64,000 bases of DNA from assembly GCA_947447955.1 (NCBI GenBank), contig CANFLS010000012.1:2946-66945 (forward strand), read 5' to 3'. Source of the stretch: Flavobacteriales bacterium (GTDB taxonomy: Bacteria > Bacteroidota > Bacteroidia > NS11-12g > UBA955). A program made the position numbers and the translations under genes. Positions 6,356 to 33,355 of the stretch are shown piece by piece. The notes beneath the pieces are model-generated. The model was not told where the DNA came from, made no database searches, and was given only the letters and a program-made list of their open reading frames with translations. Every line of letters starts with the position of its first letter. Positions within the stretch are counted from its first letter, which is position 1.

Positions 6356-6359
6356 GGTT

Positions 6360-7874: not shown

Positions 7875-7892
7875 TAATTTAAAATAATTTTT

Positions 7893-8768
7893 ATGAAAAA
7901 TATACAAAAAATAACAATTGGGCTTTTCTGTACAATCATGATTATTTTTTCATGCAAAAACGACAGGCCTTCATTAAATAATTTGCCAAAGGCAGCATTT
8001 GATATTGAATTTATTGATTCAAACAATGTAAAGTTCATAAGTAAGTCAACTGAAAATCCATTTTTATTCAATTGGACCGTTGTGAATCTTGGTACATTTA
8101 AAGGGAATGGCGTAGTTGCCAATATTCCTAACAAAGGAAAATATCAAGTAATTCTTACTGTTTATTCTCAGGGGGGAAGTGATACCCTTTCGAAATTTTT
8201 CGAAATTACAAAAAATGAGAAACCCGCTTGTACCCCAGAAATGGAGTTTTTGACGGATTGCAGTTCAAGAACATGGACATTGGCTAAAAAGCCAGGTGCA
8301 TTGTGGGTTGGACCAGTAAACGCAAGTACAACTTGGTGGGCCATTGATGCTGCTGGCGTTACAACCAGATCATGTGCCTTTAACGATGAATGGACATTCA
8401 ACGCAGATGGTACAGTTGATTACGACTGCAAAGGAGATTTGTGGGGGGAAGCGGCAACAGGATTTAAACCCGACGGTTGTTATCCAGAATCGGACTTAAC
8501 TGCCGATACCAAATTTTGGGGAAGTGGTAAACACCAATTTATGTTAACTGGAGGTACCGGAACTGATCCTTTAATTTTAAAAATGATTGGAAAGGGTGCA
8601 TTCATTGGTTTACAAAAAGTAGCAAATGGAAAAGAAGTAAGCACTCCTCAAATGGGTGTTGATTACAAAGTACTCTCACAGACAAAAACTGCAACCGACC
8701 GTTTTACAGAGGTAGAAGTAAACTTTGGTGCCGGTATTTGGAGATTTACGCTAACTTCGCCTGAATGA
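7893..8768 (+). CDS. PKD-domain surface lipoprotein, putative laminarin/beta-glucan binding protein (SGBP-like)
   Basis: Lipobox (IIFSCKND). An N-terminal PKD-like segment (NWTVVNLGTFKGNGVVANIPNKGKYQVILTVYS). It sits between SusD and GH16, as in laminarin PULs. Confidence 0.55.
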   Translation: MKNIQKITIGLFCTIMIIFSCKNDRPSLNNLPKAAFDIEFIDSNNVKFISKSTENPFLFNWTVVNLGTFKGNGVVANIPNKGKYQVILTVYSQGGSDTLSKFFEITKNEKPACTPEMEFLTDCSSRTWTLAKKPGALWVGPVNASTTWWAIDAAGVTTRSCAFNDEWTFNADGTVDYDCKGDLWGEAATGFKPDGCYPESDLTADTKFWGSGKHQFMLTGGTGTDPLILKMIGKGAFIGLQKVANGKEVSTPQMGVDYKVLSQTKTATDRFTEVEVNFGAGIWRFTLTSPE

Positions 8769-9925
8769 TAAAATTCTTTTCAGGTATTTCGTTTCTATGC
8801 TGTTTTATCCTATTTTCTTGCAAGGACAATGTTGTTACGCCTAGTTTATTGGTGAGGGACATTACAGTTCAAGAAAACAACGATAGCCAAACAATAAACG
8901 TGGTGGTTTCATTGAGCGAAACTTGTGAGCGTGATGTGAAATTCCATTTTTCAACCATGGCCAACTCTGCCACCAAAGGAATAGACTTTCGTGACAAACA
9001 GGGAGATATTACCATTGCTGCGGGAAATAAAACGGCTTCGTTTTCTTTGCAAGTTTTGGGGGACACAATCGTAGAAACTGAGGAGTCATTTTGGATATCT
9101 TATAACCAACCCAATGGATTGAATATTCCAACACCTTATGCCACGGTTAAAATCACCAACGACGATGCCGATGCGATTTCGTTTGTCGATGGATACAATA
9201 CGCCAAAAGTAAGAAAAGGATATAGCCTTGTATGGGCCGATGAATTCGATGGCAATTCCTTAAATTTAAACAACTGGGGTTTCGATATTGGAAATTCGGG
9301 TTGGGGCAACAATGAGTTGGAATACTACCAAGATGGCAATAAAAACGTAACCGTTGCCAATGGAACGTTAACAATTACTGCGAAAAAAGAAAAAGTTCAA
9401 AGTGCCAATTACACTTCGGCAAGGATAAAAACCCAAGGTAAAAAATCTTTCACGTTTGGAAGGATTGATATCCGTGCCAAACTGATGACAGGTCAAGGAT
9501 ATTGGCCAGCACTTTGGATGTTAGGTGAAAGCATTTCATCAATTGGATGGCCCGCTTGCGGTGAAATCGACATTATGGAATTGGTAGGTAGCAAACCCAA
9601 CGTAGTGCTAGGAACAGCGCATTGGGGTTTACCAGGAAATGGGTCTACCTATATTACTCGAAACTATACATTGAATGGCACAGATTTCAGCAAAGAATAC
9701 CATGTGTTTTCAATTGTTTGGGTTAAAGATCAAATCCAATGGTATGTAGATGATCAATTATACCATACCATTACCAAAAACGATGTCAATGTAACCTATC
9801 CGTTCAACTCACCTCATTTCTTCATTTTCAATGTTGCAGTGGGTGGGAATTTGCCGGGTAATCCAGATGTAAATACTGTTTTCCCCAAATCGATGGTGGT
9901 TGATTACGTGAGGGTATTTCAATAA
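8765..9925 (+). CDS. GH16 endo-beta-1,3-glucanase (laminarinase) with N-terminal Calx-beta-like domain
   Basis: ATGA overlap with the upstream gene. Lipobox (LFSCKDN). Calx-beta-like ITNDD segment. GH16 catalytic motif E-I-D-I-M-E (WPACGEIDIMELVG) plus WGNNELEYY. Confidence 0.85.
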   Translation: MIKFFSGISFLCCFILFSCKDNVVTPSLLVRDITVQENNDSQTINVVVSLSETCERDVKFHFSTMANSATKGIDFRDKQGDITIAAGNKTASFSLQVLGDTIVETEESFWISYNQPNGLNIPTPYATVKITNDDADAISFVDGYNTPKVRKGYSLVWADEFDGNSLNLNNWGFDIGNSGWGNNELEYYQDGNKNVTVANGTLTITAKKEKVQSANYTSARIKTQGKKSFTFGRIDIRAKLMTGQGYWPALWMLGESISSIGWPACGEIDIMELVGSKPNVVLGTAHWGLPGNGSTYITRNYTLNGTDFSKEYHVFSIVWVKDQIQWYVDDQLYHTITKNDVNVTYPFNSPHFFIFNVAVGGNLPGNPDVNTVFPKSMVVDYVRVFQ

Positions 9926-9956
9926 TTAAATAAGTATTTAATAAGATCTTCTAAAA

Positions 9957-9978
9957 AGCAGCTGAACTATTCAGCTGC
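9957..9978 (+). terminator. Rho-independent terminator after GH16
   Basis: aaaaagcagctgaactattcagctgcttttttg: a 10-bp perfect stem (agcagctgaa / ttcagctgct) followed by a T-run. Confidence 0.65.
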
Positions 9979-9982
9979 TTTT

Positions 9983-12900
9983 TTGTTAATTCCAAAAACT
10001 TCCTTATTTTTACTTTTTCCTAATCATATGCGCAAAAACCCTACCCTAAGAACCATACAAAATTTAAAATCTTTGATTTTGATATTGTGTGTTTTTATGG
10101 GCAATTCAATAAAAGCGCAGTTAAACGGAAATTATACCATTGGAGGGGCATCGGGAGCCAACAACTATGCAACTTGGTCGGCATTTGCAACGGCTTATAA
10201 CACCAATGGGGTTTCAGGAAAAGTTACGGTTACTGTTTTATCAAACCAAAGAATAACATCGGCGGTTCAATTAACCCAACACGCCTCCTCACCCACCACG
10301 GCTACAAAACCCTTAATCATCAATGGCAACGGTTATAAAATAACAGGTAATTTTCTGTATGAAATGATCTATTTCAACGGCATTGATTATTGCACGTTAA
10401 AAAACCTTACCATTGTTGATTCATCAGCCAATAAGGCAATTGGAATAAGGCTTACAAATAATTCAAACGACAATTTAATAGACAGTTGCACCATCGTTTT
10501 TGCGGGATTGGCATCAACAGGCAGTGCCGATAATTGTGCCTATTTGGCACTTACAGCCTCAAACACCAATTTATCTTCGCTTGCAGCTCAAATAAACTGC
10601 AGCCGCTCAGTTTTTTCAAACAACATTTTCAAAACAAGCAATACCAATTCGCCAGGCCCAATGTTTGGAATATTAGAATTCCAAGCAGCAAGTTATACCA
10701 CTACTGCAATTAACAATAGCTATCAAAACAATGCAATTAGTAATTATTATTCAGTAGGTATTTCAATTAATTACACCAATGGTGTAATCATTCAAGGCAA
10801 CAAAATATCAAGAAATGATGCTACCTCTTTGTCGCCGATGGATACATTAACCAATGCCGCCATTAGGGTATCTCGAACGTATGAAAGTACTAGACTATCA
10901 TTTGTAAGTCAAAACATCATTGAGAATATCCCATTCAAAGGAGCCACTGGATCAAAACCCGGTAATTATTTGTTTAAATTTTTCGGCATCCAACTTAATT
11001 ATGTCAACAATGGATTTTTCAATTCCAAAAGATATAACCTAGAATGCCATGAAAATGTAATACAAAAAATAAATGCCAAAAATGTATTCAACGGTATTTA
11101 TCCCTCATTTTGTGTCAATTTAAAAATAAGGAAAAATATTATTCTGAATAATTACAGTTATCAAAACGCGAGTCCCATCTACTGTGCTTACAATTTAGGA
11201 CTTACCGAGGTAACCGAAAATCACGTAAAAACAAACAACTTTAATTCCCTCAATGGAAATACGGTATTTATTTGTTTCACTGCCAATAGCCAAACATTGA
11301 ATGACTCTTCCTTCGCCGCAAATAATCTGCTAGATTCCAATACAATTGGATCTGCTAGTTGTGGATTCTTATTGTCTAGTGAGAGATCTTCAATCTTACG
11401 TAATTCCATTTTAAACAATACCTTTCAAAATGGCACTAAAGATTACTATGGAATAAAATGCAGCAATTCTAGTATAAAAATCAATAGCAATTTGATTTTA
11501 AACAAAGGAGGATGTGGGAACTTTTATGCCATTCATCAAACCAACCCAAACAATAATTCCACCGAAATTACCCAAAACACCATTTATTTCAACGCAATTG
11601 ATACCACCAATTTTTGGGGGATTTATGTAACCAACGATGCCAATAAAATCCAAGGCAACATTATTCAAGCAAATGGCACAAACTCCGGTTATTTTATCAC
11701 GCTCATCAATCCTGCAAAAGCAACACCCGTAAACAACAACATGTATTTCGGGAAATTCACAAACTCCTATTGGCAGTTGTTTACCAATAAATACAATACG
11801 TTTAAACAATGGCAAAGCACAACGCTAGCTGGAAATAATGAACGCTTTGAAAATCCCAAATTCACCAATCCCAATTCCCTAAACTTCATACCCTTAAATA
11901 GCTATTGTCAAAATATTATGGCTCCCATTAAATATGCCACTTTCGATATTTACAACAATGCCAGAAATAAGAACTTAAGCGACATGGGTGCCATTGAATC
12001 AAGTATTGATTGCAAAGCAATTGGTTATAAATTTAACGTTCCTTCAAATGCTTGTGCAGGTACCCAATATGGACCTCTTACCATTTACGGAAAAAGCAAC
12101 TTCAATGATACAATTAACCAATTAAGCGTGGCTTTCAATGTGAACAACGCCAATGAAATTAATGAAATCATTACCCGTAAAATCAAACCCTACGATACCT
12201 TTTCATATACCTTCAACAACTACCCGAAGTTAATATCTACAGGCAAAAACACAATCAAAGTCTACATTCATCAAAATGACGACACATTATCAAACGACAC
12301 AGTTTCATTGAATGTGGTTACCATAAAATCTCCGGGTGGATCAACAGTTTCATTATTGGATAGCATAGTCAACAAAAACAAAACCATTTTAAAGAACAAT
12401 ACCATCATTACTTATAATGGATTAGAGACATTTTTCACCATTACCCCGCCGAGGAATTTGTCAAATTCAGATTATGGCATAAGCAACAAATGGTTTGCAA
12501 ATGCTGCGGTTTATTCAACATCAAACAAGATTATTTCGTCAACCGTTAATATTAATCCGCCAACCACTTCCAGTAACCTTATCATTGGTGTGAATGTAAA
12601 AGACTCTGCTTTTCAAGACAGCACAATATCCCTCAAAATCAAAATAGCAAATACAATTACAGGGTGCGATACCCTATATCAATTTCAACTAAAATTGCTA
12701 AAATTGCCAGATTTAAAAATCAACCACGGCAATAAAGTTTTCTGTTCTGGCGATACAATTTCATTTGACCATAACGGCATCAATTATCCAGAACAATTGA
12801 ATTATCACTGGAATTTTGGCACCAACAATAGTGCCGATACCTCTGCCGATTTATTTACAAAGTTTATCTATAAAAATGGTGGCGTATTTATTGTTTCGCT

Positions 12901-14497
12901 TACCGCGTATTTACCCAACATCCCATTCCAATTTTCAAGTTTCGACACCATCACTGTCAATACCAAACCTATTGTTAAATTCACTAAAGACAACGTTTGT
13001 CCCTCAGAACCATTGAAAATAAAAAACTTAACTGTGCCTTCCAATTCTAACATGTATTGGGACTTTAACGATGGTAAGGGATATATTCAAAAACAAGATT
13101 CCAGTTTTATGTTAACCATTAAAAATGCAGGCACTTACGTTTTTAGACTTAAAGCAAATAACAACGGTTGCATAGTTACGGCATCGCAAAATGTAAATAT
13201 TTTCGATGCGCCAACGGCTACTTTTTCGAAATTGTCTGGCAATTGCAACAATGAAAGTATCACCTATCAAAACAACTCTACAATTAAGAGCGGCAATCTA
13301 TATTTCAAATGGGAATTAGGAGAAAATAGCACCCTCAGTTTTGCCAAGAATCCGAGCATTAATTATTCATCGTCAGGGTATAAAAATGTAAAACTTACAG
13401 TGCGTTCTGATTTTGGTTGCGCTGATTCTTCTACCAAGTCAATTTACATAAAACCTGCACCTGTTGCGAACTTTACAAGTACCGATTTTTGTTTTATTCG
13501 ACCAACAGAATTTACAAATACAACTCCCAAAATACCTGGTAGTAAACCAACTTTTTTGTGGGATTTCGGAGGTGGCGACTTAAGTTACACCGAAAATGTT
13601 ACGCAAAGCTGGAATTCAGTGGGATTGAAAACTGTGACATTCAAAATCACCTTAGACAATGGCTGCTCCGACACCGTAAAACGTTATTTTTATGTACTCG
13701 AAGAAAGTACACCTAAATTTAACTTTACTTCTAAATGCTCAGGCGATACTACCCTTTTCAACAATAATTCTACCAATTCAAAAGGTACCCCCATGATTTA
13801 TAAATGGTACTTTGGCGATGGTGACTCATCTGAAAAAACAAACCCAATTCACATTTATAAAAATAGGTTTAACACTACCTATAATGTAAAATTAATCAGT
13901 CAAATAATTGATGGCTGCGCCACTTCGATAACAAAACCAGTCATAATAAATGGGCTTCCCAATACCTGCGGTTTTTTAGGTAATGCCGATTATGCCTTTG
14001 CCTTTTACGGAGTAAAATTAAATCCATTAGACGATAACGGTTTGGTTGGCGGAAGCAATGGCATTGATTATACTTGGACCGTCAATCAAAAAGACACCCA
14101 ATACAGCAAAGATGTAAACGCCATGGTAAACTATAATTTCAAAAAAGATACGTTTTATCTGGCATCAATGTTCGCAACCGACAGAAATACCGGTTGCAAA
14201 TGTACGAGAGAGAAACTGGTTATCATGAACAGGGCTACTGTTCAGAATTTGAACCAAGTTCAAATTTCAATTTCCCCAAATCCATCAACAGGTTTATTCA
14301 ATCTCAAATTGAATAAAAGCAATGCAAACTTGAAAGTTTACATCACCAATACAAATGGTCAGAAAATTCCAAGTCGTTTGATCCAAATAAATGATTCAAA
14401 TTACCAACTCGATTTGAAAGAAGAATCGAATGGGGTTTATTTTATGAAAATAACGGATACAAACTTTTCTAAGTTTGAAAAAATCACCAAGTATTAA
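9983..14497 (+). CDS. T9SS-secreted giant protein with right-handed beta-helix region, at least 5 PKD domains and a C-terminal T9SS sorting domain (likely start 10028, MRKNPTL...)
   Basis: Signal peptide. NxxI/GxxI parallel beta-helix repeats (NNAISNYYSVGISINYTNGVIIQGNKISRND). PKD repeats (HWNFGTNNSADTS..., YWDFNDGKGY..., KWELGENSTL..., LWDFGGGDLSY..., KWYFGDGDSSE...). C-terminal ...ISISPNPSTGLFNLKL...VYITNTNGQKI...GVYFMKI, the type-A CTD pattern. Confidence 0.8.
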   Translation: MLIPKTSLFLLFPNHMRKNPTLRTIQNLKSLILILCVFMGNSIKAQLNGNYTIGGASGANNYATWSAFATAYNTNGVSGKVTVTVLSNQRITSAVQLTQHASSPTTATKPLIINGNGYKITGNFLYEMIYFNGIDYCTLKNLTIVDSSANKAIGIRLTNNSNDNLIDSCTIVFAGLASTGSADNCAYLALTASNTNLSSLAAQINCSRSVFSNNIFKTSNTNSPGPMFGILEFQAASYTTTAINNSYQNNAISNYYSVGISINYTNGVIIQGNKISRNDATSLSPMDTLTNAAIRVSRTYESTRLSFVSQNIIENIPFKGATGSKPGNYLFKFFGIQLNYVNNGFFNSKRYNLECHENVIQKINAKNVFNGIYPSFCVNLKIRKNIILNNYSYQNASPIYCAYNLGLTEVTENHVKTNNFNSLNGNTVFICFTANSQTLNDSSFAANNLLDSNTIGSASCGFLLSSERSSILRNSILNNTFQNGTKDYYGIKCSNSSIKINSNLILNKGGCGNFYAIHQTNPNNNSTEITQNTIYFNAIDTTNFWGIYVTNDANKIQGNIIQANGTNSGYFITLINPAKATPVNNNMYFGKFTNSYWQLFTNKYNTFKQWQSTTLAGNNERFENPKFTNPNSLNFIPLNSYCQNIMAPIKYATFDIYNNARNKNLSDMGAIESSIDCKAIGYKFNVPSNACAGTQYGPLTIYGKSNFNDTINQLSVAFNVNNANEINEIITRKIKPYDTFSYTFNNYPKLISTGKNTIKVYIHQNDDTLSNDTVSLNVVTIKSPGGSTVSLLDSIVNKNKTILKNNTIITYNGLETFFTITPPRNLSNSDYGISNKWFANAAVYSTSNKIISSTVNINPPTTSSNLIIGVNVKDSAFQDSTISLKIKIANTITGCDTLYQFQLKLLKLPDLKINHGNKVFCSGDTISFDHNGINYPEQLNYHWNFGTNNSADTSADLFTKFIYKNGGVFIVSLTAYLPNIPFQFSSFDTITVNTKPIVKFTKDNVCPSEPLKIKNLTVPSNSNMYWDFNDGKGYIQKQDSSFMLTIKNAGTYVFRLKANNNGCIVTASQNVNIFDAPTATFSKLSGNCNNESITYQNNSTIKSGNLYFKWELGENSTLSFAKNPSINYSSSGYKNVKLTVRSDFGCADSSTKSIYIKPAPVANFTSTDFCFIRPTEFTNTTPKIPGSKPTFLWDFGGGDLSYTENVTQSWNSVGLKTVTFKITLDNGCSDTVKRYFYVLEESTPKFNFTSKCSGDTTLFNNNSTNSKGTPMIYKWYFGDGDSSEKTNPIHIYKNRFNTTYNVKLISQIIDGCATSITKPVIINGLPNTCGFLGNADYAFAFYGVKLNPLDDNGLVGGSNGIDYTWTVNQKDTQYSKDVNAMVNYNFKKDTFYLASMFATDRNTGCKCTREKLVIMNRATVQNLNQVQISISPNPSTGLFNLKLNKSNANLKVYITNTNGQKIPSRLIQINDSNYQLDLKEESNGVYFMKITDTNFSKFEKITKY

Positions 14498-14555: not shown

Positions 14556-14592
14556 TTATTGTACTTTTTACAATAATTAATTTTTATATTTG
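14556..14592 (+). promoter_or_regulatory. Candidate Bacteroidetes sigma-A promoter for the 14.6-22.2 kb operon
   Basis: TTG at about 14559 and TATATTTG (the TAnnTTTG -7 motif) at 14585-14592, about 10 nt upstream of the ATG at 14603. Confidence 0.3.
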
Positions 14593-14602: not shown

Positions 14603-16027
14603 ATGCCCAAAGCTAAGATTCATAAAGATTTTCTTCAAAATATAAAGGAGAAAACCATATCCCATAATCAATCAATTTTGTATTCAACTTTGTTGATTTT
14701 ATTTTCGTTTCTATCTATTTTTTCTCTCAACGCTCAGGCTATTAAAGTTGAAGTTGTAAAGACCGAAAATGGCTACCAATTTTTACGCGGTGGGCAACCT
14801 TATTACGTTATTGGCGCCGGTGGTGAAACCCACCTTGACGTGGTGAAAAAGATTGGTGGCAACTCTATCAGAACTTGGGGCGTTGATAATGCACAAGAAA
14901 TTTTAGACAATGCACAAAAAAACGGCCTTACCGTAATGCTAGGATTTTGGGTACAGCATGAACGCCACGGATTCGACTATAACAACGAAGAAAAAGTAAA
15001 AAAACAACTTGAACATTTCAAACGTGTCATTGACCAATTTAAAAACCATCCAGCTTTGCTTATGTGGGGAATTGGAAACGAAGTAGATTTGTTTTATAGC
15101 AATCCCAAAGTTTGGAATGCCATTCAAGATATTGCCAAATACGCCCATCAGGTAGACCCAAACCACCCTACTTCAACAGTTACCGCAGGTTTGGATTCTT
15201 TGGAAGTAGATCATATCAAACAAAGAGCTCCAGACATTGATGTTTACTGCGTAAACACCTATGGCGACATTGGAAACGTACCAAACAACATTTACAAATA
15301 CGGTTGGACCGGCCCTTACATGATTACAGAATGGGGACCAAATGGACATTGGGAATCACCTACAACCTCTTGGGGTGCGGCAATTGAACAAAGCAGTACT
15401 GAAAAGTCAGATGTTTATTTTACCCGTTACAAAAAATACATCGAAGCATATAAAAACAGATGTTTGGGATCTTATGTTTTTTTGTGGGGACAAAAACAAG
15501 AATACACCCTAACATGGTATGGTTTGTTTACGAAAGACCAAATGCAAACAGAAGCTATTGACGCACTTGAAATAGCATGGACAGGTAAAAATCCAACTTT
15601 TGCAACACCTACCATCACTTCATTCACCATTAACAACAAAAAGGCCATTGAAAGTCCAACGATGATGGCAAATACCACCAATTTTGCAACGGCAATTACC
15701 CCTTTAAACTGTTATCAGCTTACAAATTGCGATAGCAGTGACAAGCAAATTACTTACAAGATATTGCGCGAAAGTTCCGATAAAAAAGCAGGTGGTGATG
15801 TTGAAAACGAAGCGGAAGAAGTCCCTACAAAATTTAAGGTTTCAAAAAACGGAAAGGTTATTTTTGATGCACCCAATGAAACAGGGGCTTATAGATTGTT
15901 TGTAACCATAATATACAAAGAAAAAGTGGCATATGCAAATTGTCCGTTTACAGTAACACCAAATCCGAAAAGAGGAAATGGCAAAAAAGTATGGCTAAAG
16001 AAATGGGAAATGGGATCCTTTGAATAA
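14603..16027 (+). CDS. secreted glycoside hydrolase, clan GH-A TIM-barrel (GH5/GH30-like) with extra C-terminal domain
   Basis: Signal peptide. LMWGIGNEV (acid/base NE) and YMITEWGPNG (nucleophile E), about 120 aa apart as in clan GH-A. Family not resolved. Confidence 0.55.
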   Translation: MPKAKIHKDFLQNIKEKTISHNQSILYSTLLILFSFLSIFSLNAQAIKVEVVKTENGYQFLRGGQPYYVIGAGGETHLDVVKKIGGNSIRTWGVDNAQEILDNAQKNGLTVMLGFWVQHERHGFDYNNEEKVKKQLEHFKRVIDQFKNHPALLMWGIGNEVDLFYSNPKVWNAIQDIAKYAHQVDPNHPTSTVTAGLDSLEVDHIKQRAPDIDVYCVNTYGDIGNVPNNIYKYGWTGPYMITEWGPNGHWESPTTSWGAAIEQSSTEKSDVYFTRYKKYIEAYKNRCLGSYVFLWGQKQEYTLTWYGLFTKDQMQTEAIDALEIAWTGKNPTFATPTITSFTINNKKAIESPTMMANTTNFATAITPLNCYQLTNCDSSDKQITYKILRESSDKKAGGDVENEAEEVPTKFKVSKNGKVIFDAPNETGAYRLFVTIIYKEKVAYANCPFTVTPNPKRGNGKKVWLKKWEMGSFE

Positions 16028-17906
16028 CATGAAAATAAAATTACTCACTGGAATTGTACTTATCCCGAATTTGATTTTTGCTCAACTTGGAAGTTCTGCA
16101 AATACTGACAGCATCTACCCCGCTCATTTACAAAGAAGGGTAAATGTAACTGGGGTGTTTCCAAAAGAACCAATCAAAAAACTCGAAAACTTCAGTATTT
16201 CTGGATACTATCGATTTATTACCAACGTAAGAAAATTGGATGTGGCTTATGCCGAACAGGCCAAAACGCCAGTCAATATTTTTGTTGGTGACGATGGTCA
16301 AATTCCACAACTTTCGCTAAATATGGCGGGAAGCGTTTCAGCAACAACCCGTTTCTCAACAGATTTTTATTTGTGGACACCCATGATGGGTGGCGGAATG
16401 CCAGAAAACGTGAAAGGATTAAACTTAGGGGTTAGTTTGAATGGATCACATTCAACCAGCTATGGCAATTTCGAAATCCAATGTGGTGGTATCAATTGGT
16501 ACGCCCTCTCCCCTTTTACATTTCATACCAACCAAGGTTATAACCGATATAGTTTGTTTGAAAGAAATCCTTGGGATCCAAGAACAAAAAACATCGACGA
16601 CCGTTACAACAGCTTTTACACCCAAGGTGCATTAAACCAAGATTTGCGTTGGGGAAATCAAGCTTTCCAAGGTGTTATTTTTGAGGGAAATGATTTACCG
16701 AATGGATTTTCAACTTCAATCATGTTTGGTAAAACCCAGTTAAACGGAGGAATGATGGCTTTGCCAAATCAATCTTATGGTGGTAAATTGAAAAAGCTAA
16801 TTGGAACTGGTAACGTCACTTTCAATTCGTTTAACAACCAAAGTTACACAGACAGTTTGATACAACATGGAGTTGGTTTTAACATCCATACTCTGACGTT
16901 TGAGCAAACGTTCTTAGGATTGAAAATCTCAGGTGAAACAGGTGCTGGCAGATACTTTAGTCCCTCAACACAACGAGGATGGGGCGAAGCAATAAGTGTG
17001 AAATTAAATACCCCAGCCAAATACACGTTAATACCTTTACAGTTTCATTACTTTCAAATTAGTCCTAAAGTGTTAAACAACAGTTCTGTTTTTTGGAACT
17101 CTTCAATTAGGGAAGGAAACACAAGTTCTAACAATTCTAGCGATCAAATCGTATTGGCGCCGTTTGCGAGTGCATTGACTCAGGTTGGACAAGTTACCAA
17201 TAACAGAAAGGGATTTGAAATCAACAGTGAATTCGAAGTGAAGAAATTCAAATTCAATTTGGGATATTCTAACAGCCGTGAAATTGAAAATATTTCATCT
17301 CAGCTTACCTACGGACATCCAGTAAACGGATTGGCTTTGTCTAGATTTTGGCGTTGGGGATTTCCTGCAAATGTGGGTCCTTACGGAAACTTAACCAAGG
17401 TCTACCGCAGTGTATTTGAAACAGTGAATCTAACCGACGTAACACCCACCAAGCAACCATTAAATACGAAGTATTTCAATGTTTTGGAAGTGAATGCCAA
17501 ATACAGAACTAAAATCTTAAATAAAGATTTATATATAAACTACTTGGGAAGCTATTCTTCGGTACAGAATTTCTATTCAAACGTTACAGTATTTACCGAA
17601 AAAGCATATTTGAGGGCTTATTACCACCAATTAGAAGCTTATTTGAAATTAACAAAGCGCGTTGTTTGGACAAACTATGCCGGCTGGGAGCGCATCATTG
17701 CCAATTACGATACTGAAATCAATGCAGTTACAAGAAGGCCAAGAAACCAAACGGGTTATGGATTTGCAACCGGTTTAGATATTGAAATGAGCAAAGGTGC
17801 TGGATTATACCTCAGACAAAGATGGATGGATTATTACGACAGTAGTTTTCCGAATAACAAATATTCAGGTTGGGAATCAACCGTTGAAGTTAAAATTTTC
17901 TTTTAA
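16020..17906 (+). CDS. hypothetical outer-membrane beta-barrel protein (628 aa)
   Basis: Signal peptide (IFAQ). Alternating amphipathic beta-strand composition, aromatic/Gly rich. The C-terminal residue is F. Overlaps the upstream GH by 8 bp. Confidence 0.45.
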   Translation: MNNMKIKLLTGIVLIPNLIFAQLGSSANTDSIYPAHLQRRVNVTGVFPKEPIKKLENFSISGYYRFITNVRKLDVAYAEQAKTPVNIFVGDDGQIPQLSLNMAGSVSATTRFSTDFYLWTPMMGGGMPENVKGLNLGVSLNGSHSTSYGNFEIQCGGINWYALSPFTFHTNQGYNRYSLFERNPWDPRTKNIDDRYNSFYTQGALNQDLRWGNQAFQGVIFEGNDLPNGFSTSIMFGKTQLNGGMMALPNQSYGGKLKKLIGTGNVTFNSFNNQSYTDSLIQHGVGFNIHTLTFEQTFLGLKISGETGAGRYFSPSTQRGWGEAISVKLNTPAKYTLIPLQFHYFQISPKVLNNSSVFWNSSIREGNTSSNNSSDQIVLAPFASALTQVGQVTNNRKGFEINSEFEVKKFKFNLGYSNSREIENISSQLTYGHPVNGLALSRFWRWGFPANVGPYGNLTKVYRSVFETVNLTDVTPTKQPLNTKYFNVLEVNAKYRTKILNKDLYINYLGSYSSVQNFYSNVTVFTEKAYLRAYYHQLEAYLKLTKRVVWTNYAGWERIIANYDTEINAVTRRPRNQTGYGFATGLDIEMSKGAGLYLRQRWMDYYDSSFPNNKYSGWESTVEVKIFF

Positions 17907-17911
17907 AATAA

Positions 17912-19630
17912 ATGAACATGCTTAAAGCGAAACATATTATCATTTTATTTACTTCATGGGCATTTAATGGCAATGCACAAATTTCTCCAAAGGTGAAAAT
18001 TACCGGCGGCGCAAGAAGTATTATAAACAATCAAAATATTCAAGTGAATGATTCTATTCCCGATAAAACAACGCCAAAAGGCAATGCCGGAGGGTATGCG
18101 TTGATCGATTTGGGATTTAATATCTCTCCAAATAAAAATACCGAAATTTTGGGAATGATTCGTATCAAAAACCAATACGGTGGATTTTTTGGCGGTGGAG
18201 TATCTTTTGATGTACGTCAACTTTGGGTAAAAGGTATTATTGCCGATGCGGTTCGCTACCAACTTGGGGATATAAATTTGAAACAAACACCTTTCACCTT
18301 CTACAACAACAACGAAGATTTGCTAATCAATCAAAATCCTGTTACCAAAATGCAACAGGAAATTGTGAATTACGAAACGTTTTATAAAAACAATACTTGG
18401 CGCCAACAAGGTGCGTCTATTGATTTTGGTTTAAATTTCTCAAAATACCTTCAAGAAATCAATGTAAACGGTTATTTAACCCGTTTGAACATGACAAACT
18501 TTGGAAACGTTCCTGAGCGTTTGTTTGGTGGATCAACGGTTGATTTCATTGTAAACGATCATTTAAGTGCCCAATACAATTTGAGCAGTGTTTTTGATGT
18601 TACTGGAACTGGAACAGATTCTAATTCATTTAGAAACATTGTTCAAACTGGAGCTTTCAAATATGCCAATACGTTTAAAAACTACCCAATTGTGTTGAAA
18701 GGTGAATTTGGAAATTCTTCAATGTATTACACAGTAGATCCTAAGGCACCGAAATTGAACGACTTCTTTTTGAATCCTTCAGCGCAAATAAGCTTTCCTA
18801 AGTTGAATATCGATTTGGAATTGGGTTATTTGAACGTAGGGCCTGATTTCAGAAGTCCTGGAGCACAATCAAAGCGCATCAATTACAATTCAGCGTTAAC
18901 CAGTTTTGGTTTGTACAAACAAACACAAGCCGACCGTCCAGTGAGCCTCGGCGACATTATGGGCGACAACAAACTGTACAACAATGGCATTAGCAATAAA
19001 ATCATGGCCTACCATCCGTTAATCAACAATGTATTGCCTTATGGTTTGGCTACATTTAACAGAAATGGGGCTTATGGAATTGCAAAATGGTCAAACAAAG
19101 AAAAAGGTTTGTCAGCCGATTGGGCACATTACCAATTGAGTGAGATTCGTGGACAAGGAACAAAAAACTTAAAGAAATATACCATGAGCAACCTTCAGTT
19201 GGGTTGGAATCTTTCTAAAGTGTTAAAATTGAAAAAGTCCCTCAAAATATCTACTGCAGTTTCATACCAACAAACAAGCCGTACGGGTGAGTTTTCGTAT
19301 GAAAAAGTTGATTTACAATCTATTCAATCTGCATTTGGATTTGAGTGGGAATTTGCAAAGCAATTGGAATTGGTTGGTGGTTACACCGGATTGCAAGGTA
19401 AAGGGCACGATCAAATGTCGAGCAGAAATTTCTATACCGAAGTTACCGATTTCAAAGATTACAATGTAAATTTGAGTGAATCGATTACCGCAGTGGGTTT
19501 GAGATTCCGTTTTACAGAGAAAGCTTATTTTGGAATTATGTACCAAAGTTTTAATTACGATAACAAAGCCCAGGCTTTTGACAATTATAAAATCAATCAA
19601 ACTTTAATCATTTACAATTTATTATTCTAA
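17912..19630 (+). CDS. hypothetical outer-membrane beta-barrel protein (572 aa), possibly alginate-export/porin-like
   Basis: Signal peptide (NGNAQ). Beta-strand-rich with a C-terminal F. Lies 5 bp after the previous gene. Confidence 0.45.
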   Translation: MNMLKAKHIIILFTSWAFNGNAQISPKVKITGGARSIINNQNIQVNDSIPDKTTPKGNAGGYALIDLGFNISPNKNTEILGMIRIKNQYGGFFGGGVSFDVRQLWVKGIIADAVRYQLGDINLKQTPFTFYNNNEDLLINQNPVTKMQQEIVNYETFYKNNTWRQQGASIDFGLNFSKYLQEINVNGYLTRLNMTNFGNVPERLFGGSTVDFIVNDHLSAQYNLSSVFDVTGTGTDSNSFRNIVQTGAFKYANTFKNYPIVLKGEFGNSSMYYTVDPKAPKLNDFFLNPSAQISFPKLNIDLELGYLNVGPDFRSPGAQSKRINYNSALTSFGLYKQTQADRPVSLGDIMGDNKLYNNGISNKIMAYHPLINNVLPYGLATFNRNGAYGIAKWSNKEKGLSADWAHYQLSEIRGQGTKNLKKYTMSNLQLGWNLSKVLKLKKSLKISTAVSYQQTSRTGEFSYEKVDLQSIQSAFGFEWEFAKQLELVGGYTGLQGKGHDQMSSRNFYTEVTDFKDYNVNLSESITAVGLRFRFTEKAYFGIMYQSFNYDNKAQAFDNYKINQTLIIYNLLF

Positions 19631-19632
19631 CC

Positions 19633-20640
19633 ATGAAACGCCTTATATATATTGTTGTTGCAGTGTTAACTTTAAACAGTTGCAAACGTGAACAAATGCC
19701 TTACGAAGGTCCGAATTTGCAAGATTTAAATGGTACTTTCGGGTTTTTATCGGCTTTTAAGTCAGATAAAACCACTGTTGATTTTTCTAAAACAGAAGTT
19801 GTAAATTTCTCAGCGGAATTCACAAAAATCTGTGCATGGAAAATTGAAATCAAAGGCAAAACCAGTGGAGCTAAAAAAGTGTTAGAAGGAAAATCAAGAA
19901 ATCTTGAAGCACCTTTGTCAACTTGGAATGGAACTACTACATTTTTCCCCATGTTTAAAAATGAGAATTGTGTGGCTACCCTAAAAATTGAAGGTGTTAC
20001 AGATACATTTAATTTGAATATCAATGTTACAGGACTAAAAACACCGTCAGGATTTGTAGTTGCCAATTTCGAAACAGGCATCAGCACAAAATGGACAACG
20101 TTCATTCAAAGCGGTGCAAGTATGGATTTTAAAATCCACAATGACAAATACACCATTGAAGGTTCTAATTATTTGAATATGGGTGGAATTGTAAACTGGG
20201 ATTGGTTAATTGGTTTAATAGATTTTCCAGCTACCGCTTATGGAAATGGAACAGTTAAAACCTTCCCTGTTACCTCAATTGCCGATGATGTTTATTTCAA
20301 CTGCTTAATTTATGGAGTACCTAATTCAAACCCATCGCATGTTTTGTTTCAATTTAAAGAAGATGATAACGGCAACGGCACATTTGAATCGTCAGCAGAC
20401 GATGAATACGACAAAGAAATCATTGTAAATTGGGAAGGTTGGAAATTGGTTAGTTTCAAATACAACAGCATGGTCCGCTTGGTAAATGGAACCCCAGCGG
20501 TAAACAATGGAAACAGCAAATTCAATCCCAATTCAATCAATAAAATATCCATGCTTCATTTGGCAAATCCTGCAAACGGCGCCGGAAGTACAAAAATTGA
20601 TTGCATTATGTTCACTGAAAAAGGTCCTTTAGAATTATAA
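19633..20640 (+). CDS. hypothetical surface lipoprotein, putative glycan-binding
   Basis: Lipobox (LTLNSCKRE). Beta-rich with no catalytic motif. Lies 2 bp after the previous gene. Confidence 0.45.
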   Translation: MKRLIYIVVAVLTLNSCKREQMPYEGPNLQDLNGTFGFLSAFKSDKTTVDFSKTEVVNFSAEFTKICAWKIEIKGKTSGAKKVLEGKSRNLEAPLSTWNGTTTFFPMFKNENCVATLKIEGVTDTFNLNINVTGLKTPSGFVVANFETGISTKWTTFIQSGASMDFKIHNDKYTIEGSNYLNMGGIVNWDWLIGLIDFPATAYGNGTVKTFPVTSIADDVYFNCLIYGVPNSNPSHVLFQFKEDDNGNGTFESSADDEYDKEIIVNWEGWKLVSFKYNSMVRLVNGTPAVNNGNSKFNPNSINKISMLHLANPANGAGSTKIDCIMFTEKGPLEL

Positions 20641-21336
20641 ATGAAAACCATTCTTTCACTTTGTCTTTTTTTATTGAGTGGTTTTGTTTTTTCACAAAAC
20701 GATTCTGCCCAATTTCATAAAATGGATACCATTTCTTTGAATGGAAAACTGTTATCTTTCCAAAACAGAAGCTTGTACGATATTCAGGAAGAAGCAGACA
20801 AAGAGAACATCAATGGATTTTACGCTTTAGAAATTTTCAACGAAAACATAGACAAACAAGTTTGGGCATCCCCAGAAAAGAATTGCGTACAATTTTCACC
20901 TGAAAACACACTTGTTTTTGAGGGAAAAAATGCCTTGCATGTAAATTGGGATAAAATTTCAGGTGGCTGCATTTGGGCTGGAATGGGATTTGGTTGGGAC
21001 AATTGGAGACCCAAAGATATTTCTGCAATTATTGATACAGCAGGTATAGAAATTTATTTCTATTCTCCAGGCACAGACCTAAACAATTTGCCTTTGGCAT
21101 TTGCCATAGAAGATTATTCTGGATCACAAGCCTATGTTGGTTATGCTCCAAAATATCTAACATCCCCAAAAATCAAAGCCAATACTTGGAATAGCTTTAT
21201 TTTGCCGCTGAAGGATTTTCCTTTCACTGCCACCCAAACAGATCCTGGCAATACCAAACAATTCATCATTCAATTCGAAGCAGATGGAAATATCATCTTC
21301 GATAAGATTAAAATAGTATCCCTCAATAAAAAATAA
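20641..21336 (+). CDS. hypothetical secreted protein, CBM-like
   Basis: Signal peptide (VFSQ). Aromatic-rich beta composition (CIWAGMGFGWDNW). Abuts the previous gene. Confidence 0.4.
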   Translation: MKTILSLCLFLLSGFVFSQNDSAQFHKMDTISLNGKLLSFQNRSLYDIQEEADKENINGFYALEIFNENIDKQVWASPEKNCVQFSPENTLVFEGKNALHVNWDKISGGCIWAGMGFGWDNWRPKDISAIIDTAGIEIYFYSPGTDLNNLPLAFAIEDYSGSQAYVGYAPKYLTSPKIKANTWNSFILPLKDFPFTATQTDPGNTKQFIIQFEADGNIIFDKIKIVSLNKK

Positions 21337-21339
21337 AAC

Positions 21340-22179
21340 ATGTTTCGTAAACTCATACTTTTTTGTTCAATTTGTTATCTTTTTGCCAGTTGCGAGCAAT
21401 CTGACCCCAATTCTATTAAGAGAAATCATGTAATTAAAGATTCAGGTGATTTTGTTTTTTCCGGATATGGATGGAGAATCAAATCAAGCACCTTCCCTGT
21501 TGGTCCTGGTCCAAATATTTTTGCAAAAGACAAATCCAATGTATGGGTTGACAGCAACGGCTATTTGCATTTGAAAATCACCAACAACAATGGAAAATGG
21601 CAATCTAGTGAAATTATTTGTACCGAAAATACCGGTTTTGGAACCTATATTTTCACATTGGGCAATGACATCACCAAAATGAATGAAAATATTGTGTTGG
21701 GATTATTTACTTGGGATGACAATACGTTTTCATCTCAGGCAAACAGCGAAGTAGACATTGAATTTGCGCGTTGGTTTAAAGCAAATGATTCTTTGCTATT
21801 AACAACTTCGGTACAACCTGTTTCGTTTGATAATTCAGTGCCATTTGCGGAAAGAACGCATAAGCCAGCCATGATTGTGAGCAAAATGAAACAAGCCACA
21901 ACCCATGCGTTTAAATGGACAGATAAAGAAATTGTTTGGAACAGTTATGTAGGCAAATCATACCCAGGACTTGAACAAATTGCAAACTGGCGTTACGATT
22001 TAAGCAACCAACCTAGGGTAAAAACAGAAGGTGGACGTTCTTCAAATGCAATTGTAATACCCCAACCAGGAAATACAACCAATACAAGAATGAACTTATG
22101 GTTATTGAATGGCTTGGCACCTACAAACGGAAAAACGTTTGAGGTGATTATTGAAAAATACGACTTTATTCCGGCTTAA
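21340..22179 (+). CDS. GH16-like (concanavalin-like glucanase fold) lipoprotein
   Basis: Lipobox (LFASCEQ). SEVDIEFARW matches the GH16 E-x-D-x-E catalytic motif. An upstream WVDSNGYLHLKI...GKWQSSEI segment is typical of GH16. Confidence 0.5.
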   Translation: MFRKLILFCSICYLFASCEQSDPNSIKRNHVIKDSGDFVFSGYGWRIKSSTFPVGPGPNIFAKDKSNVWVDSNGYLHLKITNNNGKWQSSEIICTENTGFGTYIFTLGNDITKMNENIVLGLFTWDDNTFSSQANSEVDIEFARWFKANDSLLLTTSVQPVSFDNSVPFAERTHKPAMIVSKMKQATTHAFKWTDKEIVWNSYVGKSYPGLEQIANWRYDLSNQPRVKTEGGRSSNAIVIPQPGNTTNTRMNLWLLNGLAPTNGKTFEVIIEKYDFIPA

Positions 22180-30040: not shown

Positions 30041-30043
30041 ACG
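30011..30043 (+). repeat. Palindromic dispersed element copy 1 (GGATTA-TCCCGAAAGCTTTCGGGA-GGATTAGAC) inside the ATPase 3' end
   Basis: 18-bp perfect palindrome at 30016-30033. Other copies are at 30146-30163, 38939-38956 and 40388-40405. Confidence 0.85.
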
Positions 30044-30181
30044 GATTAGACGGGTTAGACAGATTGGGTTTAGATGCGTAAACGCGTTTAGATGGCTTCG
30101 CCGTTTAGAAGACCTAAAGGTAGTTTAGACGGATTAGACGGATTATCCCGATAGCTATCGGGAGGGTTAGACAGATTGGGT
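30036..30181 (+). repeat. Mosaic repeat block (GATTAGACR units, tttagatgcgtaaacgcgtttagatgg, palindromic element copy 2 at 30141-30173)
   Basis: gattagacggattagacgggttagacagattgggtttagatgcgtaaacgcgtttagatgg...ggattagacggattatcccgatagctatcgggagggttagacagattgggtttag. Confidence 0.85.
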
Positions 30182-31127: not shown

Positions 31128-31146
31128 TTAAAAGTTAATTAGAAAG

Positions 31147-33347: not shown

Positions 33348-33355
33348 TGTTTCAC

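What the first reader, a model, noticed from the sequence alone, without database searches (positions are those of the whole stretch)
14603..22179. Six-gene secreted glycan-handling operon built around two large outer-membrane beta-barrels, with no SusC or SusD
Six plus-strand genes are packed with overlaps or gaps of 8 bp or less, which makes a single operon likely. A TAnnTTTG -7 element sits just upstream. All six products carry signal peptides or lipoboxes. The genes are a clan GH-A hydrolase (NE acid/base and TEWG nucleophile), two different beta-barrel OMPs of 628 and 572 aa (C-terminal Phe), a surface lipoprotein, a CBM-like secreted protein and a GH16-like lipoprotein (EVDIE). The locus lies directly downstream of a canonical SusC/SusD laminarin PUL but has no SusC or SusD of its own. 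This suggests an alternative glycan capture or import route that uses the two barrels. It could instead be a synthase-independent export/trimming module of the AlgE/PslG type, although no glycosyltransferase is present. I cannot place the two barrels in a known family by eye.
Basis: partly seen in the sequence, partly recalled or inferred. Interest (0 to 1): 0.7.

Follow-up and report, generated by a model that had tools for sequence, protein, structure and literature searches.

The report
SusCD-free two-barrel beta-glucan uptake locus
This six-gene operon is a beta-1,3-glucan (laminarin-type) feeding locus built on the same two-barrel outer-membrane module that Cytophaga hutchinsonii needs to eat cellulose, and related loci show that the module is widespread in Bacteroidota and paired with enzymes for several different polysaccharides, in place of the usual SusC/SusD transporter.

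Summary
Six tightly packed + strand genes at 14603-22179 all encode exported proteins. They are a GH158 beta-1,3-glucanase, two plug-less beta-barrels of roughly 22-25 predicted strands (strand count read from the DSSP string), a lipoprotein, a CBM30/SGBP-B-like protein and a GH16-like lipoprotein.

The barrels can be placed. g2, g3, g4 and g5 are homologs of Cytophaga hutchinsonii CHU_1276, CHU_1277, CHU_1278 and the N-domain of CHU_1279. These form the "atypical PUL" chu_1276-1280, which genetics show is needed for cellulose use.

The barrel1-barrel2-lipoprotein order holds wherever the contig extends: 74/74 and 67/67 genome loci, 71/72 and 61/62 metagenome loci. SusC/SusD hits occur in only 2 of 160 loci. 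The core sits next to different enzyme sets:
- GH158/GH3/GH16 (beta-1,3-glucan)
- GH18 with NagB (chitin)
- GH9 (cellulose)
- GH5 with PMI (mannan)
- a pectate lyase

Most likely mechanism (inferred): capture at the surface by CBM proteins, TonB-independent passage through the barrels, then periplasmic GH158 and GH3 digestion.

This is a new substrate variant of a little-known kind. The phylum-wide, multi-substrate spread was not found in the literature I could search.

The parts
14585..14592 (+). TATATTTG, a possible Bacteroidota -7 promoter element 11 bp before the g1 ATG. A second copy, TAAGTTTG, is at 14470-14477.
   Evidence: Present. The motif is not enriched in the window (88 found, 98.9 expected), so this is only a candidate.
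14603..16027 (+). g1: GH158 beta-1,3-glucanase of 474 aa with an SPI-type signal peptide, probably periplasmic. It belongs to the GH158(Pro)-like (processive, laminaribiose-releasing) cluster.
   Evidence: phmmer against PDB gives 9oro E 1e-92 and 6pal E 2e-66. E160, E243, W250 and E300 align with Glu143, Glu229, W236 and Glu285 of GH158(Pro) (PMC13195107). Most orthologs have SPI-type rather than lipoprotein signals.
16029..17906 (+). g2: barrel 1, 625 aa, a homolog of C. hutchinsonii CHU_1276. It is a large plug-less outer-membrane beta-barrel of about 24 strands (25 DSSP strand elements, one irregular).
17918..19630 (+). g3: barrel 2, 570 aa, a homolog of CHU_1277. It is a plug-less beta-barrel of about 22 strands (23 DSSP strand elements) that starts about 5 residues after the signal peptide.
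19633..20640 (+). g4: lipoprotein of 335 aa (Cys17), a homolog of CHU_1278, with a weakly CBM11-like C-terminal half.
   Evidence: blastp against CHU_1278 gives E 2e-21 and the A4 profile gives E 3e-35. 12 of 24 family members match Pfam CBM_11, best E 1e-4. Cys17 is invariant.
20641..21336 (+). g5: CBM30/SGBP-B-like beta-sandwich protein of 231 aa, homologous to the N-terminal CBM-like domain of CHU_1279. It has an SPI signal here and is a lipoprotein in many orthologs.
   Evidence: 23 of 25 family members match CBM30 (best 2.8e-8) and 18 of 25 match SGBP_B_XBD. hhalign of the CHU_1279 family against the g5 family gives probability 94%, E 1e-7. g5 is fused in frame to GH3 in L029.
21340..22179 (+). 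g6: GH16-like (clan GH-B type) lipoprotein of 279 aa, a candidate endo-beta-glucanase.
   Evidence: Cys18, E137, D139 and E141 are invariant in 27 orthologs. The profile hits the GH16 lichenases 1mac and 1byh at E 2.6e-4, with EVDIEF aligned to EIDIEF. There is no Pfam GH16 hit. In marine variants a canonical GH16 gene lies just past g5, usually on the opposite strand, where freshwater loci have GH3 and g6.
3446..14497 (+). Adjacent canonical laminarin-type PUL, which is not part of the conserved module. It comprises SusC 3446-6355, SusD 6360-7874, a hypothetical gene 7893-8768, a Calx-beta+GH16 gene 8765-9925, and a 1504-aa PKD protein with a T9SS tail at 9983-14497.
   Evidence: Pfam. It is found next to the block only in the 97%-identical relative L017, and not in the 93% relative L007 or in 77 other species.

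Best explanation
The block is a beta-1,3-glucan (laminarin or chrysolaminarin-type) utilisation operon of the CHU_1276-1279 type. This is a SusC/SusD-independent outer-membrane glycan-uptake module.

Shown here:
- g1 is a GH158 with its catalytic residues intact.
- g2, g3, g4 and g5 are homologs of CHU_1276, CHU_1277, CHU_1278 and the N-domain of CHU_1279.
- Both barrels are about as large as TonB-dependent transporter barrels but have no plug domain.
- The gene order is conserved across hundreds of Bacteroidota species and across loci that carry different enzyme sets.

Inferred mechanism:
1. The g4 and g5 CBM-type proteins, and in most relatives a T9SS-secreted CBM-like protein, hold beta-glucan at the cell surface.
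2. The g6 GH16-like lipoprotein may nick the glucan.
3. Oligosaccharides cross the outer membrane through one or both barrels without TonB energy.
4. In the periplasm the SPI-exported GH158 cuts the chains to laminaribiose. This assumes it is processive like its closest characterised relative.
5. A GH3 beta-glucosidase makes glucose. GH3 is encoded inside the block in most relatives but is absent from this window.
6. An inner-membrane MFS transporter takes up the glucose.
For: **GH158 identity and residues.**, with PMC13195107.

**Barrel folds without a plug.**. Pfam finds no Plug domain. The barrels begin at residue 26 (g3) and residue 53 (g2).

**Homology to the C. hutchinsonii cluster.**
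- L172 carries genes of 743, 606, 380 and 375 aa followed by a GH9.
- The 375-aa protein has W89, F92, F180, Y253, F256 and F343, exactly the residues mutated in CHU_1279 (PMC12016534).
- blastp E-values are 1e-56, 5e-81 and 2e-21. hhalign gives 94% probability for g5.

**Genetics in C. hutchinsonii.** CHU_1276, CHU_1277, CHU_1279 and CHU_1280 are each needed for cellulose use. chu_1276 and chu_1279 mutants grow poorly on low glucose. CHU_1277 takes part in cellooligosaccharide assimilation.

**Conservation.** Barrel 1 is followed by barrel 2 in 74/74 and 71/72 loci. Barrel 2 is followed by g4 in 67/67 and 61/62 loci.

**Catabolic neighbours.**
- GH3 in 47 loci
- an NrtR/AraR regulator in 31 loci
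- an MFS transporter in 17 loci
- a T9SS CBM-like protein in 52 loci

**The same core with other enzymes.**
- GH18 with NagB, GH9 with GH3, an SSF symporter and HTCS regulators
- GH5 with PMI and ROK
- a pectate lyase

**Domain fusions.** CBM4_9 is fused to barrel 1 in distant relatives. g5 is fused to GH3.
Against: - No transport assay exists for any member. In C. hutchinsonii the mutants also lose cell-associated beta-glucosidase activity, which a scaffold role would explain equally well.
- An open barrel of about 22 or more strands would be leaky. What closes it is unknown, and I could not inspect the model coordinates.
- Localisation of GH158, g5 and g6 is inferred only from signal-peptide type.
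- g6 activity is unproven, and it does not reach the Pfam GH16 threshold.
- This genome has a SusCD laminarin PUL next door, so here the two systems may share work.
- Substrate is inferred from enzyme families only.
Confidence: 0.72

Rival explanations
1. The barrels are scaffolds or anchors, not channels. They would assemble or present the CBM proteins and glycosidases at the cell surface in a utilisome-like platform. Sugars would enter through general porins, or here through the neighbouring SusCD.
For: - chu_1276 and chu_1277 mutants lose cell-associated beta-glucosidase activity.
[quoted passage not shown] The authors propose that it stabilises a complex.
- g5 has no lipid anchor in this window yet belongs to a family described as outer-membrane SGBP-like.
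Against: - Two barrels of about 22 or more strands are far larger than an anchor needs.
- Low-glucose growth defects of chu_1276 and chu_1279 mutants point to uptake.
- Most loci have no SusCD nearby that could do the import.
- The SPI-type signal on GH158 implies that substrate reaches the periplasm as oligomers.
Confidence: 0.17
2. The block is only an accessory extension of the upstream SusC/SusD laminarin PUL. It would supply extra enzymes and binding proteins, with import through SusCD.
For: - It lies directly downstream of the SusC, SusD, GH16 and PKD genes on the same strand, with the same predicted substrate.
- The same arrangement occurs in L017.
Against: - The block stands without any SusC/SusD hit in 78 of 80 species-level genome loci and in all 80 metagenome loci. 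These include the 93%-identical relative L007.
- Many loci carry their own regulator and inner-membrane transporter.
Confidence: 0.08
3. The block is an exopolysaccharide export and trimming module of the AlgE, PgaA, BcsC or PslG type. The barrels would secrete a glucan and the hydrolases would trim it.
For: - A GT2 gene lies 1.8 kb downstream in this window.
Against: - The GT2 is kept only in close relatives, where it sits beside gidB and alaS.
- No synthase, TPR or periplasmic scaffold genes recur.
- The recurrent partners are catabolic: GH3, NagB, PMI, PFK, sugar transporters and HTCS or NrtR regulators.
- The C. hutchinsonii homologs are needed for growth on cellulose.
Confidence: 0.03

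Closest known systems
Cytophaga hutchinsonii chu_1276-chu_1280 'atypical PUL' for cellulose (PMC12016534 and the work cited there)
   Same: - The four core genes are homologous and in the same order: barrel CHU_1276, barrel CHU_1277, lipoprotein CHU_1278 and SGBP-B-like CHU_1279.
- They are co-oriented with a glycoside hydrolase.
- There is no SusC/SusD in the cluster.
- An ECF sigma factor sits next to the block in some relatives (L001), as in the CHU_3097 control of chu_1276.
   Different: - The enzymes are GH158 plus a GH16-like protein (and GH3 in relatives) instead of GH9, so the substrate is soluble beta-1,3-glucan rather than crystalline cellulose.
- g5 is a single domain matching only the N-terminal domain of CHU_1279. 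It lacks the cellulose-binding C-terminal domain.
- Barrel 1 lacks the roughly 100-aa N-terminal extension of CHU_1276.
- The host is an uncultured freshwater Flavobacteriales MAG, not a soil Cytophagales.
- The published distribution covered three cellulolytic species. Here the module is seen in 337 species-level genomes for this subfamily alone.
Canonical SusC/SusD polysaccharide utilisation loci, such as the Bacteroides beta(1,3)-glucan PUL with BuGH158 (PMC7157763)
   Same: - The logic is the same: an operon combining outer-membrane barrel(s), surface glycan-binding lipoproteins, an endo-glucanase, a periplasmic exo-enzyme, a dedicated regulator and an inner-membrane transporter.
- The GH158, GH16 and GH3 enzyme set is the same.
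- HTCS regulators accompany some relatives.
   Different: - There is no SusD.
- The barrels have no Plug domain or TonB box and share no detectable sequence similarity with SusC.
- There are two different barrels instead of one.
- SusCD-based PUL predictors would not detect these loci.
Sugar-specific porins of Proteobacteria (LamB, ScrY, ChiP, OprB, CymA)
   Same: They are plug-less outer-membrane barrels encoded beside the catabolic genes for one glycan. Uptake of oligosaccharides is presumed to be TonB-independent.
   Different: - Those porins have 14-18 strands and about 300-450 residues.
- These barrels are 570 and 625 aa, with roughly 22-25 predicted strands.
- These barrels always come as a pair together with CBM-type partner proteins.
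Plug-and-barrel lipoprotein complexes (LptD-LptE, MtrB-MtrA) and lidded transporters (SusC-SusD, BtuB-BtuG)
   Same: A very large barrel is strictly co-encoded with a lipoprotein or soluble partner that could close or cap it. This is a lead, not a test.

Membership tests
CHU_1276-1280-type atypical PUL | A CHU_1276-family outer-membrane barrel | tested here: met
   g2 against CHU_1276 (L172:10001-12232) by blastp gives 26% identity over 635 aa, E 1e-56. The A1 profile gives E 2.4e-80.
CHU_1276-1280-type atypical PUL | A CHU_1277-family barrel encoded immediately downstream | tested here: met
   g3 against CHU_1277 gives 32% identity over 544 aa, E 5e-81. The adjacency holds in 74/74 and 71/72 loci.
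CHU_1276-1280-type atypical PUL | A CHU_1278-like lipoprotein as the third gene | tested here: met
   g4 against CHU_1278 gives E 2e-21, and the A4 profile gives E 3e-35.
CHU_1276-1280-type atypical PUL | A bimodular SGBP-B-like CHU_1279 with a glycan-binding C-terminal domain | tested here: inconclusive
   The g5 family matches the N-terminal domain of the CHU_1279 family (hhalign probability 94%, E 1e-7). g5 here has a single domain and lacks the C-terminal CBM11-like domain. Marine orthologs of about 415 aa are longer.
CHU_1276-1280-type atypical PUL | A co-oriented glycoside hydrolase and no SusC/SusD in the cluster | tested here: met
   GH158 is upstream and the GH16-like gene is downstream on the same strand. 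No Plug or SusD hits occur in g1-g6.
CHU_1276-1280-type atypical PUL | Induced by the substrate and required for growth on it | not testable with these tools
   This needs culture, transcriptomics or genetics. All carriers of the GH158-type block found here are uncultured MAGs.
Canonical SusC/SusD PUL | A SusC-like TonB-dependent transporter (Plug plus a 22-strand barrel) paired with SusD | tested here: not met
   No Plug, TonB_dep_Rec or SusD Pfam or NCBIfam hits occur in g1-g6. The barrels start at residues 26 and 53. The SusC/SusD pair at 3446-7874 is a separate upstream unit.
GH158 | Sequence membership, with the acid/base and nucleophile glutamates | tested here: met
   9oro gives E 1e-92 and 6pal gives E 2e-66. 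E160 and E243 align with Glu143 and Glu229 after the +8 numbering offset.
GH158, processive GH158(Pro)-like cluster | Residues implicated in translocation and tunnel formation (W236, Glu285, salt bridge) | tested here: inconclusive
   W250 and E300 align with W236 and Glu285. The salt-bridge residues were not identified, and activity is untested.
GH16 (for g6) | A match to the family model and the E-x-D-x(x)-E catalytic motif on a beta-jelly roll | tested here: inconclusive
   There is no Pfam GH16 hit at E<=1. The ortholog profile hits the lichenases 1mac and 1byh at E 2.6e-4 with EVDIEF aligned to EIDIEF. E137, D139 and E141 are invariant.
Synthase-dependent exopolysaccharide export (AlgE, PgaA, BcsC) | A conserved partner synthase or glycosyltransferase and a specific barrel fold match | tested here: not met
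Sugar-specific porins (LamB, ScrY, ChiP) | A 16-18-strand barrel with sequence or fold similarity specific to the family | tested here: not met

The most novel reading that the evidence does not exclude
The CHU_1276/CHU_1277 two-barrel module may be a second, phylum-wide, substrate-swappable glycan import machine of Bacteroidota. It would run in parallel to SusCD and work without TonB.

In this reading the large plug-less barrels are gated by the co-encoded CBM-type proteins. The gating would act in trans through g4/CHU_1278 and g5/CHU_1279. It would act in cis in the relatives whose barrel 1 carries an N-terminal CBM4_9 domain, at the position where TonB-dependent transporters carry their plug.

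The multi-substrate spread is already shown by gene context. The gating and energy-independence are not shown.
Probability: 0.3. Interest if true: 0.85.

Novelty: new variant of a known kind. Interest (0 to 1): 0.66.

Why it matters
PULs are found and counted by their SusC/SusD pairs, so loci of this type are invisible to standard PUL prediction. The module is nevertheless present in 337 species-level genomes for this subfamily alone. Most of the 80 loci fetched come from uncultured lake, reservoir and river Bacteroidota, and the metagenome scan added marine (TARA) contigs. It is attached to enzymes for laminarin-type glucan, chitin, cellulose, mannan and pectin.

If the barrels are the import route, three things follow:
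- Estimates of which bacterioplankton consume laminarin and chitin would need revising. So would the use of SusC/D expression as a proxy for glycan use.
- The long-unexplained cellulose uptake of C. hutchinsonii would become one instance of a general mechanism.
- That mechanism could be studied with soluble substrates.

Tried and rejected
**Direct family assignment of the barrels.**
- Pfam and NCBIfam scans of the barrels found nothing.
- Sequence-profile searches of both barrels against the PDB found nothing.

**Are the two barrels paralogs?** Not demonstrable. blastp gave E 0.019 and hhalign gave probability 7.6%.

**Accessory proteins.**
- A single CHU_1279 sequence against the g5 profile was not significant. 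Only family-versus-family profiles linked them.
- The g4 profile against the PDB gave no hits. The g5 profile against the PDB gave only a weak CBM30 hit, E 0.26.

- The Foldseek afdb50 library was unavailable.
- The first broad alignment, A6, was too divergent for the metagenome scan.

**Literature.**
- Searches for SusCD-independent or porin-based glycan uptake in Bacteroidota found nothing beyond the C. hutchinsonii papers.
- The three primary C. hutchinsonii papers (PMC4784033, PMC4148786, PMC6384103) are not held. Their content is cited only through PMC12016534 and PMC5553014.

**Readings rejected.**
- Export module.
- TonB-dependent transporter.
- Classical sugar porin.
- The TAnnTTTG motif as evidence of a promoter.

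**GH3 in this window.** None was found in the ORFs scanned: the ten largest of the 29 ORFs of 200 aa or more beyond 28 kb, plus the ORFs up to 30 kb. No other ORF in the window is long enough for a typical GH3 of about 750 aa.

Full report
**1. What is in the window**

Six + strand ORFs fill 14603-22179. Proteins in the public collection that are 100% identical to g2 and g3 are 625 and 570 aa long (P0001; P0121). The likely starts are therefore 16029 and 17918, and the gaps between genes are 1, 11, 2, 0 and 3 bp.

Upstream lie the following genes:
- SusC (3446-6355)
- SusD (6360-7874)
- a hypothetical gene (7893-8768)
- a Calx-beta+GH16 gene (8765-9925)
- a 1504-aa PKD protein with a T9SS sorting domain (9983-14497)

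Downstream lie two unannotated - strand genes, then a GT2, gidB and alaS.

The TAnnTTTG element at 14585-14592 exists. The motif is not enriched in the window, with 88 copies against 98.9 expected, so it is not evidence of a promoter.

**2. The enzymes**

g1 is a GH158.
- phmmer against PDB sequences gives 9oro, "GH158(Pro)", at E 1e-92. It gives 6pal, the only GH158 structure solved before 9oro (its depositors call it an uncharacterized protein; identification with BuGH158 is from my own knowledge), at E 2e-66.
- W250 and E300 align with W236 and Glu285, which the authors link to substrate translocation.
- GH158(Pro) is an endo-processive beta(1,3)-glucanase that releases almost only disaccharide, and it represents the largest sequence cluster of the family.

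g6 has no Pfam or PDB hit as a single sequence.
- An alignment of 27 orthologs has invariant Cys18 (lipobox) and invariant E137, D139 and E141 in the motif NSE-V/I-D-I/V-EF.
- Its profile finds the GH16 lichenases 1mac and 1byh at E 2.6e-4, with the catalytic motifs aligned.
- I call it GH16-like. Membership is not proven.

**3. The barrels**

Neither g2 nor g3 matches any Pfam or NCBIfam model or any PDB sequence, even as a profile.

- AlphaFold2 with 68-sequence alignments gives barrels with mean pLDDT 76.9 (g2) and 88.6 (g3).
- The DSSP strings list 25 strand elements for g2 and 23 for g3. I read these as about 24 and 22 barrel strands.
- The strands begin at residue 53 (g2) and residue 26 (g3), so there is no room for an N-terminal plug.
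- The longest alignments, 330-375 residues, are to the 22-strand TonB-dependent barrels and to the usher pores, which fits the strand count.
- The two barrels are not demonstrably related to each other.

**4. The accessory proteins**

- g4 is a lipoprotein with Cys17 invariant. Half of its family reaches a weak CBM_11 match, best E 1e-4.
- In the g5 family, 23 of 25 members match CBM30 (best 2.8e-8) and 18 of 25 match the SGBP-B xyloglucan-binding domain.
- g5 has an SPI-type signal here and in some clades, and a lipobox in others.
- GH158 orthologs mostly have SPI-type signals. g4 and g6 are lipoproteins throughout (read by eye plus a simple pattern, not with a predictor).

**5. Conservation**

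Each barrel has more than 500 homolog clusters at 90% identity, all unnamed.

A scan of one genome per GTDB species found 337 species that encode a close relative of barrel 1. The 80 best loci are all Bacteroidota MAGs. Most come from lakes, reservoirs and rivers, including Erken, Loclat, Baikal, Mendota, Zurich and Rimov. The window itself is 97% identical to a Lake Zurich Flavobacteriales MAG (L017).

In those loci the order GH158, barrel 1, barrel 2, g4, g5, (GH3), g6 is invariant wherever the contig extends:
- Barrel 2 follows barrel 1 in 74 of 74 loci.
- g4 follows barrel 2 in 67 of 67 loci.
- GH158 lies just upstream in 69 of 71 loci.

A GH3 gene sits between g5 and g6 in 43 loci, and just past the block in 4 more. 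The window and its nearest relatives lack it.

SusC/SusD hits within the fetched flanks occur only in L017 and, on the opposite strand, in L079.

Recurrent neighbours are:
- a T9SS-secreted protein of about 470 aa with a Por_Secre_tail (52 loci)
- an NrtR/AraR-type Nudix regulator (31 loci)
- an MFS transporter (17 loci)

**6. The wider family**

An exhaustive HMM search with the barrel 1 profile found 317 representatives at 50% clustering.

- Distant members at 24-32% identity keep the same order of barrel 1, barrel 2 and g4. In the metagenome loci this holds in 71/72 and 61/62 cases.
- Three distant members carry an N-terminal CBM_4_9 domain fused to the barrel.
- In L029 g5 is fused in frame to GH3. 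L031 carries a similarly long g5-matching ORF that I did not translate.

Only the enzymes around the core change:
- GH18 immediately upstream in 14 loci, with glucosamine-6-phosphate isomerase/deaminase immediately downstream, and PFK and GAPDH nearby. This suggests chitin.
- GH9 with CelD_N, GH3, an SSF symporter and hybrid two-component regulators. This suggests beta-1,4-glucan.
- A GH5 mannosidase with phosphomannose isomerase and a ROK kinase, in L088.
- A T9SS pectate lyase, in L089.
- Marine (TARA) versions of the GH158 type, which carry a canonical GH16 gene just past g5, usually on the opposite strand.

**7. Link to known biology**

A homolog search from a GH9-type locus returned a protein named from C. 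hutchinsonii ATCC 33406 (P0439). Its contig (L172) carries genes of 743, 606, 380 and 375 aa, followed by a 589-aa GH9.

The 375-aa product has W89, F92, F180, Y253, F256 and F343. These are exactly the residues mutated in CHU_1279 in PMC12016534. This fixes the identities as CHU_1276 to CHU_1280.

| Window protein | C. hutchinsonii protein | Result (unless stated) |
|---|---|---|
| g2 | CHU_1276 | 26% identity over 635 aa, E 1e-56 |
| g3 | CHU_1277 | 32% identity over 544 aa, E 5e-81 |
| g4 | CHU_1278 | 27% identity over 381 aa, E 2e-21 |
| g5 family profile | N-terminal domain of the CHU_1279 family | hhalign probability 94%, E 1e-7 |

According to PMC12016534 and PMC5553014:
- The cluster is co-induced by cellulose.
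- CHU_1276, CHU_1277, CHU_1279 and CHU_1280 are each needed for cellulose use.
- chu_1276 and chu_1279 mutants grow poorly on low glucose.
- CHU_1277 takes part in cellooligosaccharide assimilation.
- The canonical SusC/SusD homologs of that organism are dispensable for cellulose use.
- The authors call the cluster an atypical PUL and report it in only two further cellulolytic Cytophagales.

I found no paper that describes the module outside that group or with other substrates. The library does not hold most subscription papers, so this absence is not proof.

**8. Mechanism**

Shown:
- the gene content
- the homologies
- the plug-less large barrels
- the strict co-occurrence of the four core genes
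- the catabolic partners
- the independence from SusCD

Inferred:
1. CBM-type proteins hold beta-1,3-glucan at the surface.
2. g6 may nick it.
3. Oligosaccharides pass through one or both barrels without TonB.
4. The periplasmic GH158 makes laminaribiose.
5. GH3 makes glucose. This genome must encode GH3 elsewhere, because none was found in the window ORFs scanned.
6. An MFS carrier imports the glucose.

The SPI-type signal on GH158 argues that oligomers, not only glucose, reach the periplasm. From my own recollection, which I could not verify here, the CHU_1280 GH9 is periplasmic, which would be a parallel.

What closes barrels of this size is the main open question. The CBM4_9-barrel fusions and the obligatory CBM-type partners suggest gating by these proteins, but I could not test this.

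Rivals:
- A scaffold or anchor role for the barrels. This is supported by the loss of cell-associated beta-glucosidase in the C. hutchinsonii mutants.
- A mere accessory role to the adjacent SusCD PUL. The stand-alone loci contradict this.
- Exopolysaccharide export. No conserved synthase accompanies the block, and the partners are catabolic.

**9. Verdict**

The barrels belong to the CHU_1276 and CHU_1277 families.

The locus is a new substrate variant (beta-1,3-glucan, GH158/GH16-like) of a known but poorly understood kind. The added value is evidence that this kind is a widespread, modular alternative to SusCD in environmental Bacteroidota.

Noticed in passing
P0276, P0291, P0292 (loci L087:2543-4921, L088:10001-12382): Distant relatives of barrel 1 carry an N-terminal CBM_4_9 domain (residues about 24-150) directly before the barrel. 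This is the position where TonB-dependent transporters have their plug.
   Followed up: partly
L029:8926-11916 (a similarly long ORF at L031:7978-10893 was not translated): In L029 g5 (CBM30-like) is fused in frame to a full GH3 beta-glucosidase behind one SPI signal peptide. This implies that g5 and GH3 act in the same compartment in that lineage.
   Followed up: partly
window 21336-21340, compared with L001:15247-17499: This window and its closest relatives (L007-L010) lack the GH3 gene that sits between g5 and g6 in 43 related loci. No GH3 was found among the window ORFs scanned.
   Followed up: partly
L160:3-4085 and L160:9905-14384: One metagenome contig carries two copies of the module about 6 kb apart. 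One is of the GH158 type and the other is a divergent barrel 1, barrel 2, g4 set.
   Followed up: no
L017:9992-12071: In the 97%-identical Lake Zurich MAG the barrel 1 gene is split into two overlapping ORFs (9992-11275 and 11199-12071). This is either a frameshift or an assembly error.
   Followed up: no
window 22181-23038 (-) and 23059-23850 (-): Two small exported proteins have no Pfam match. The first ends in ...FTYRF, like a small outer-membrane barrel. They are conserved next to the block only in close relatives (L005-L010, L017).
   Followed up: no
window 23960-25099 (+): A GT2 glycosyltransferase overlaps the start of gidB by 7 bp. It is kept only in close relatives and is not linked to the module.
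   Followed up: partly
window 9983-14497 (+): A 1504-aa PKD-repeat protein with a T9SS sorting domain sits between the SusCD PUL and the block. GC skew is strongly negative (-0.17) across it, unlike its neighbours.
   Followed up: no
window 30000-34000: This is a low-GC stretch (0.30-0.31 against about 0.36-0.39). It is flanked by an AAA_14/DUF4143 ATPase gene (28700-30040) and a Fic/DUF4172 gene (34846-36162). It may be a mobile or defence-related island.
   Followed up: no
L001:7764-8507; L027:1518-2246; L095:2-2722: The module is paired with three different regulator types in different lineages. These are an ECF sigma factor, an NrtR/AraR-type Nudix regulator (31 loci) and hybrid two-component systems (6 loci of the divergent group).
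   Followed up: partly
window 603-1658 (+) and 1660-2760 (-): A PorP/SprF-family T9SS membrane protein and a DUF3078 protein lie just upstream of the SusCD PUL.
   Followed up: no
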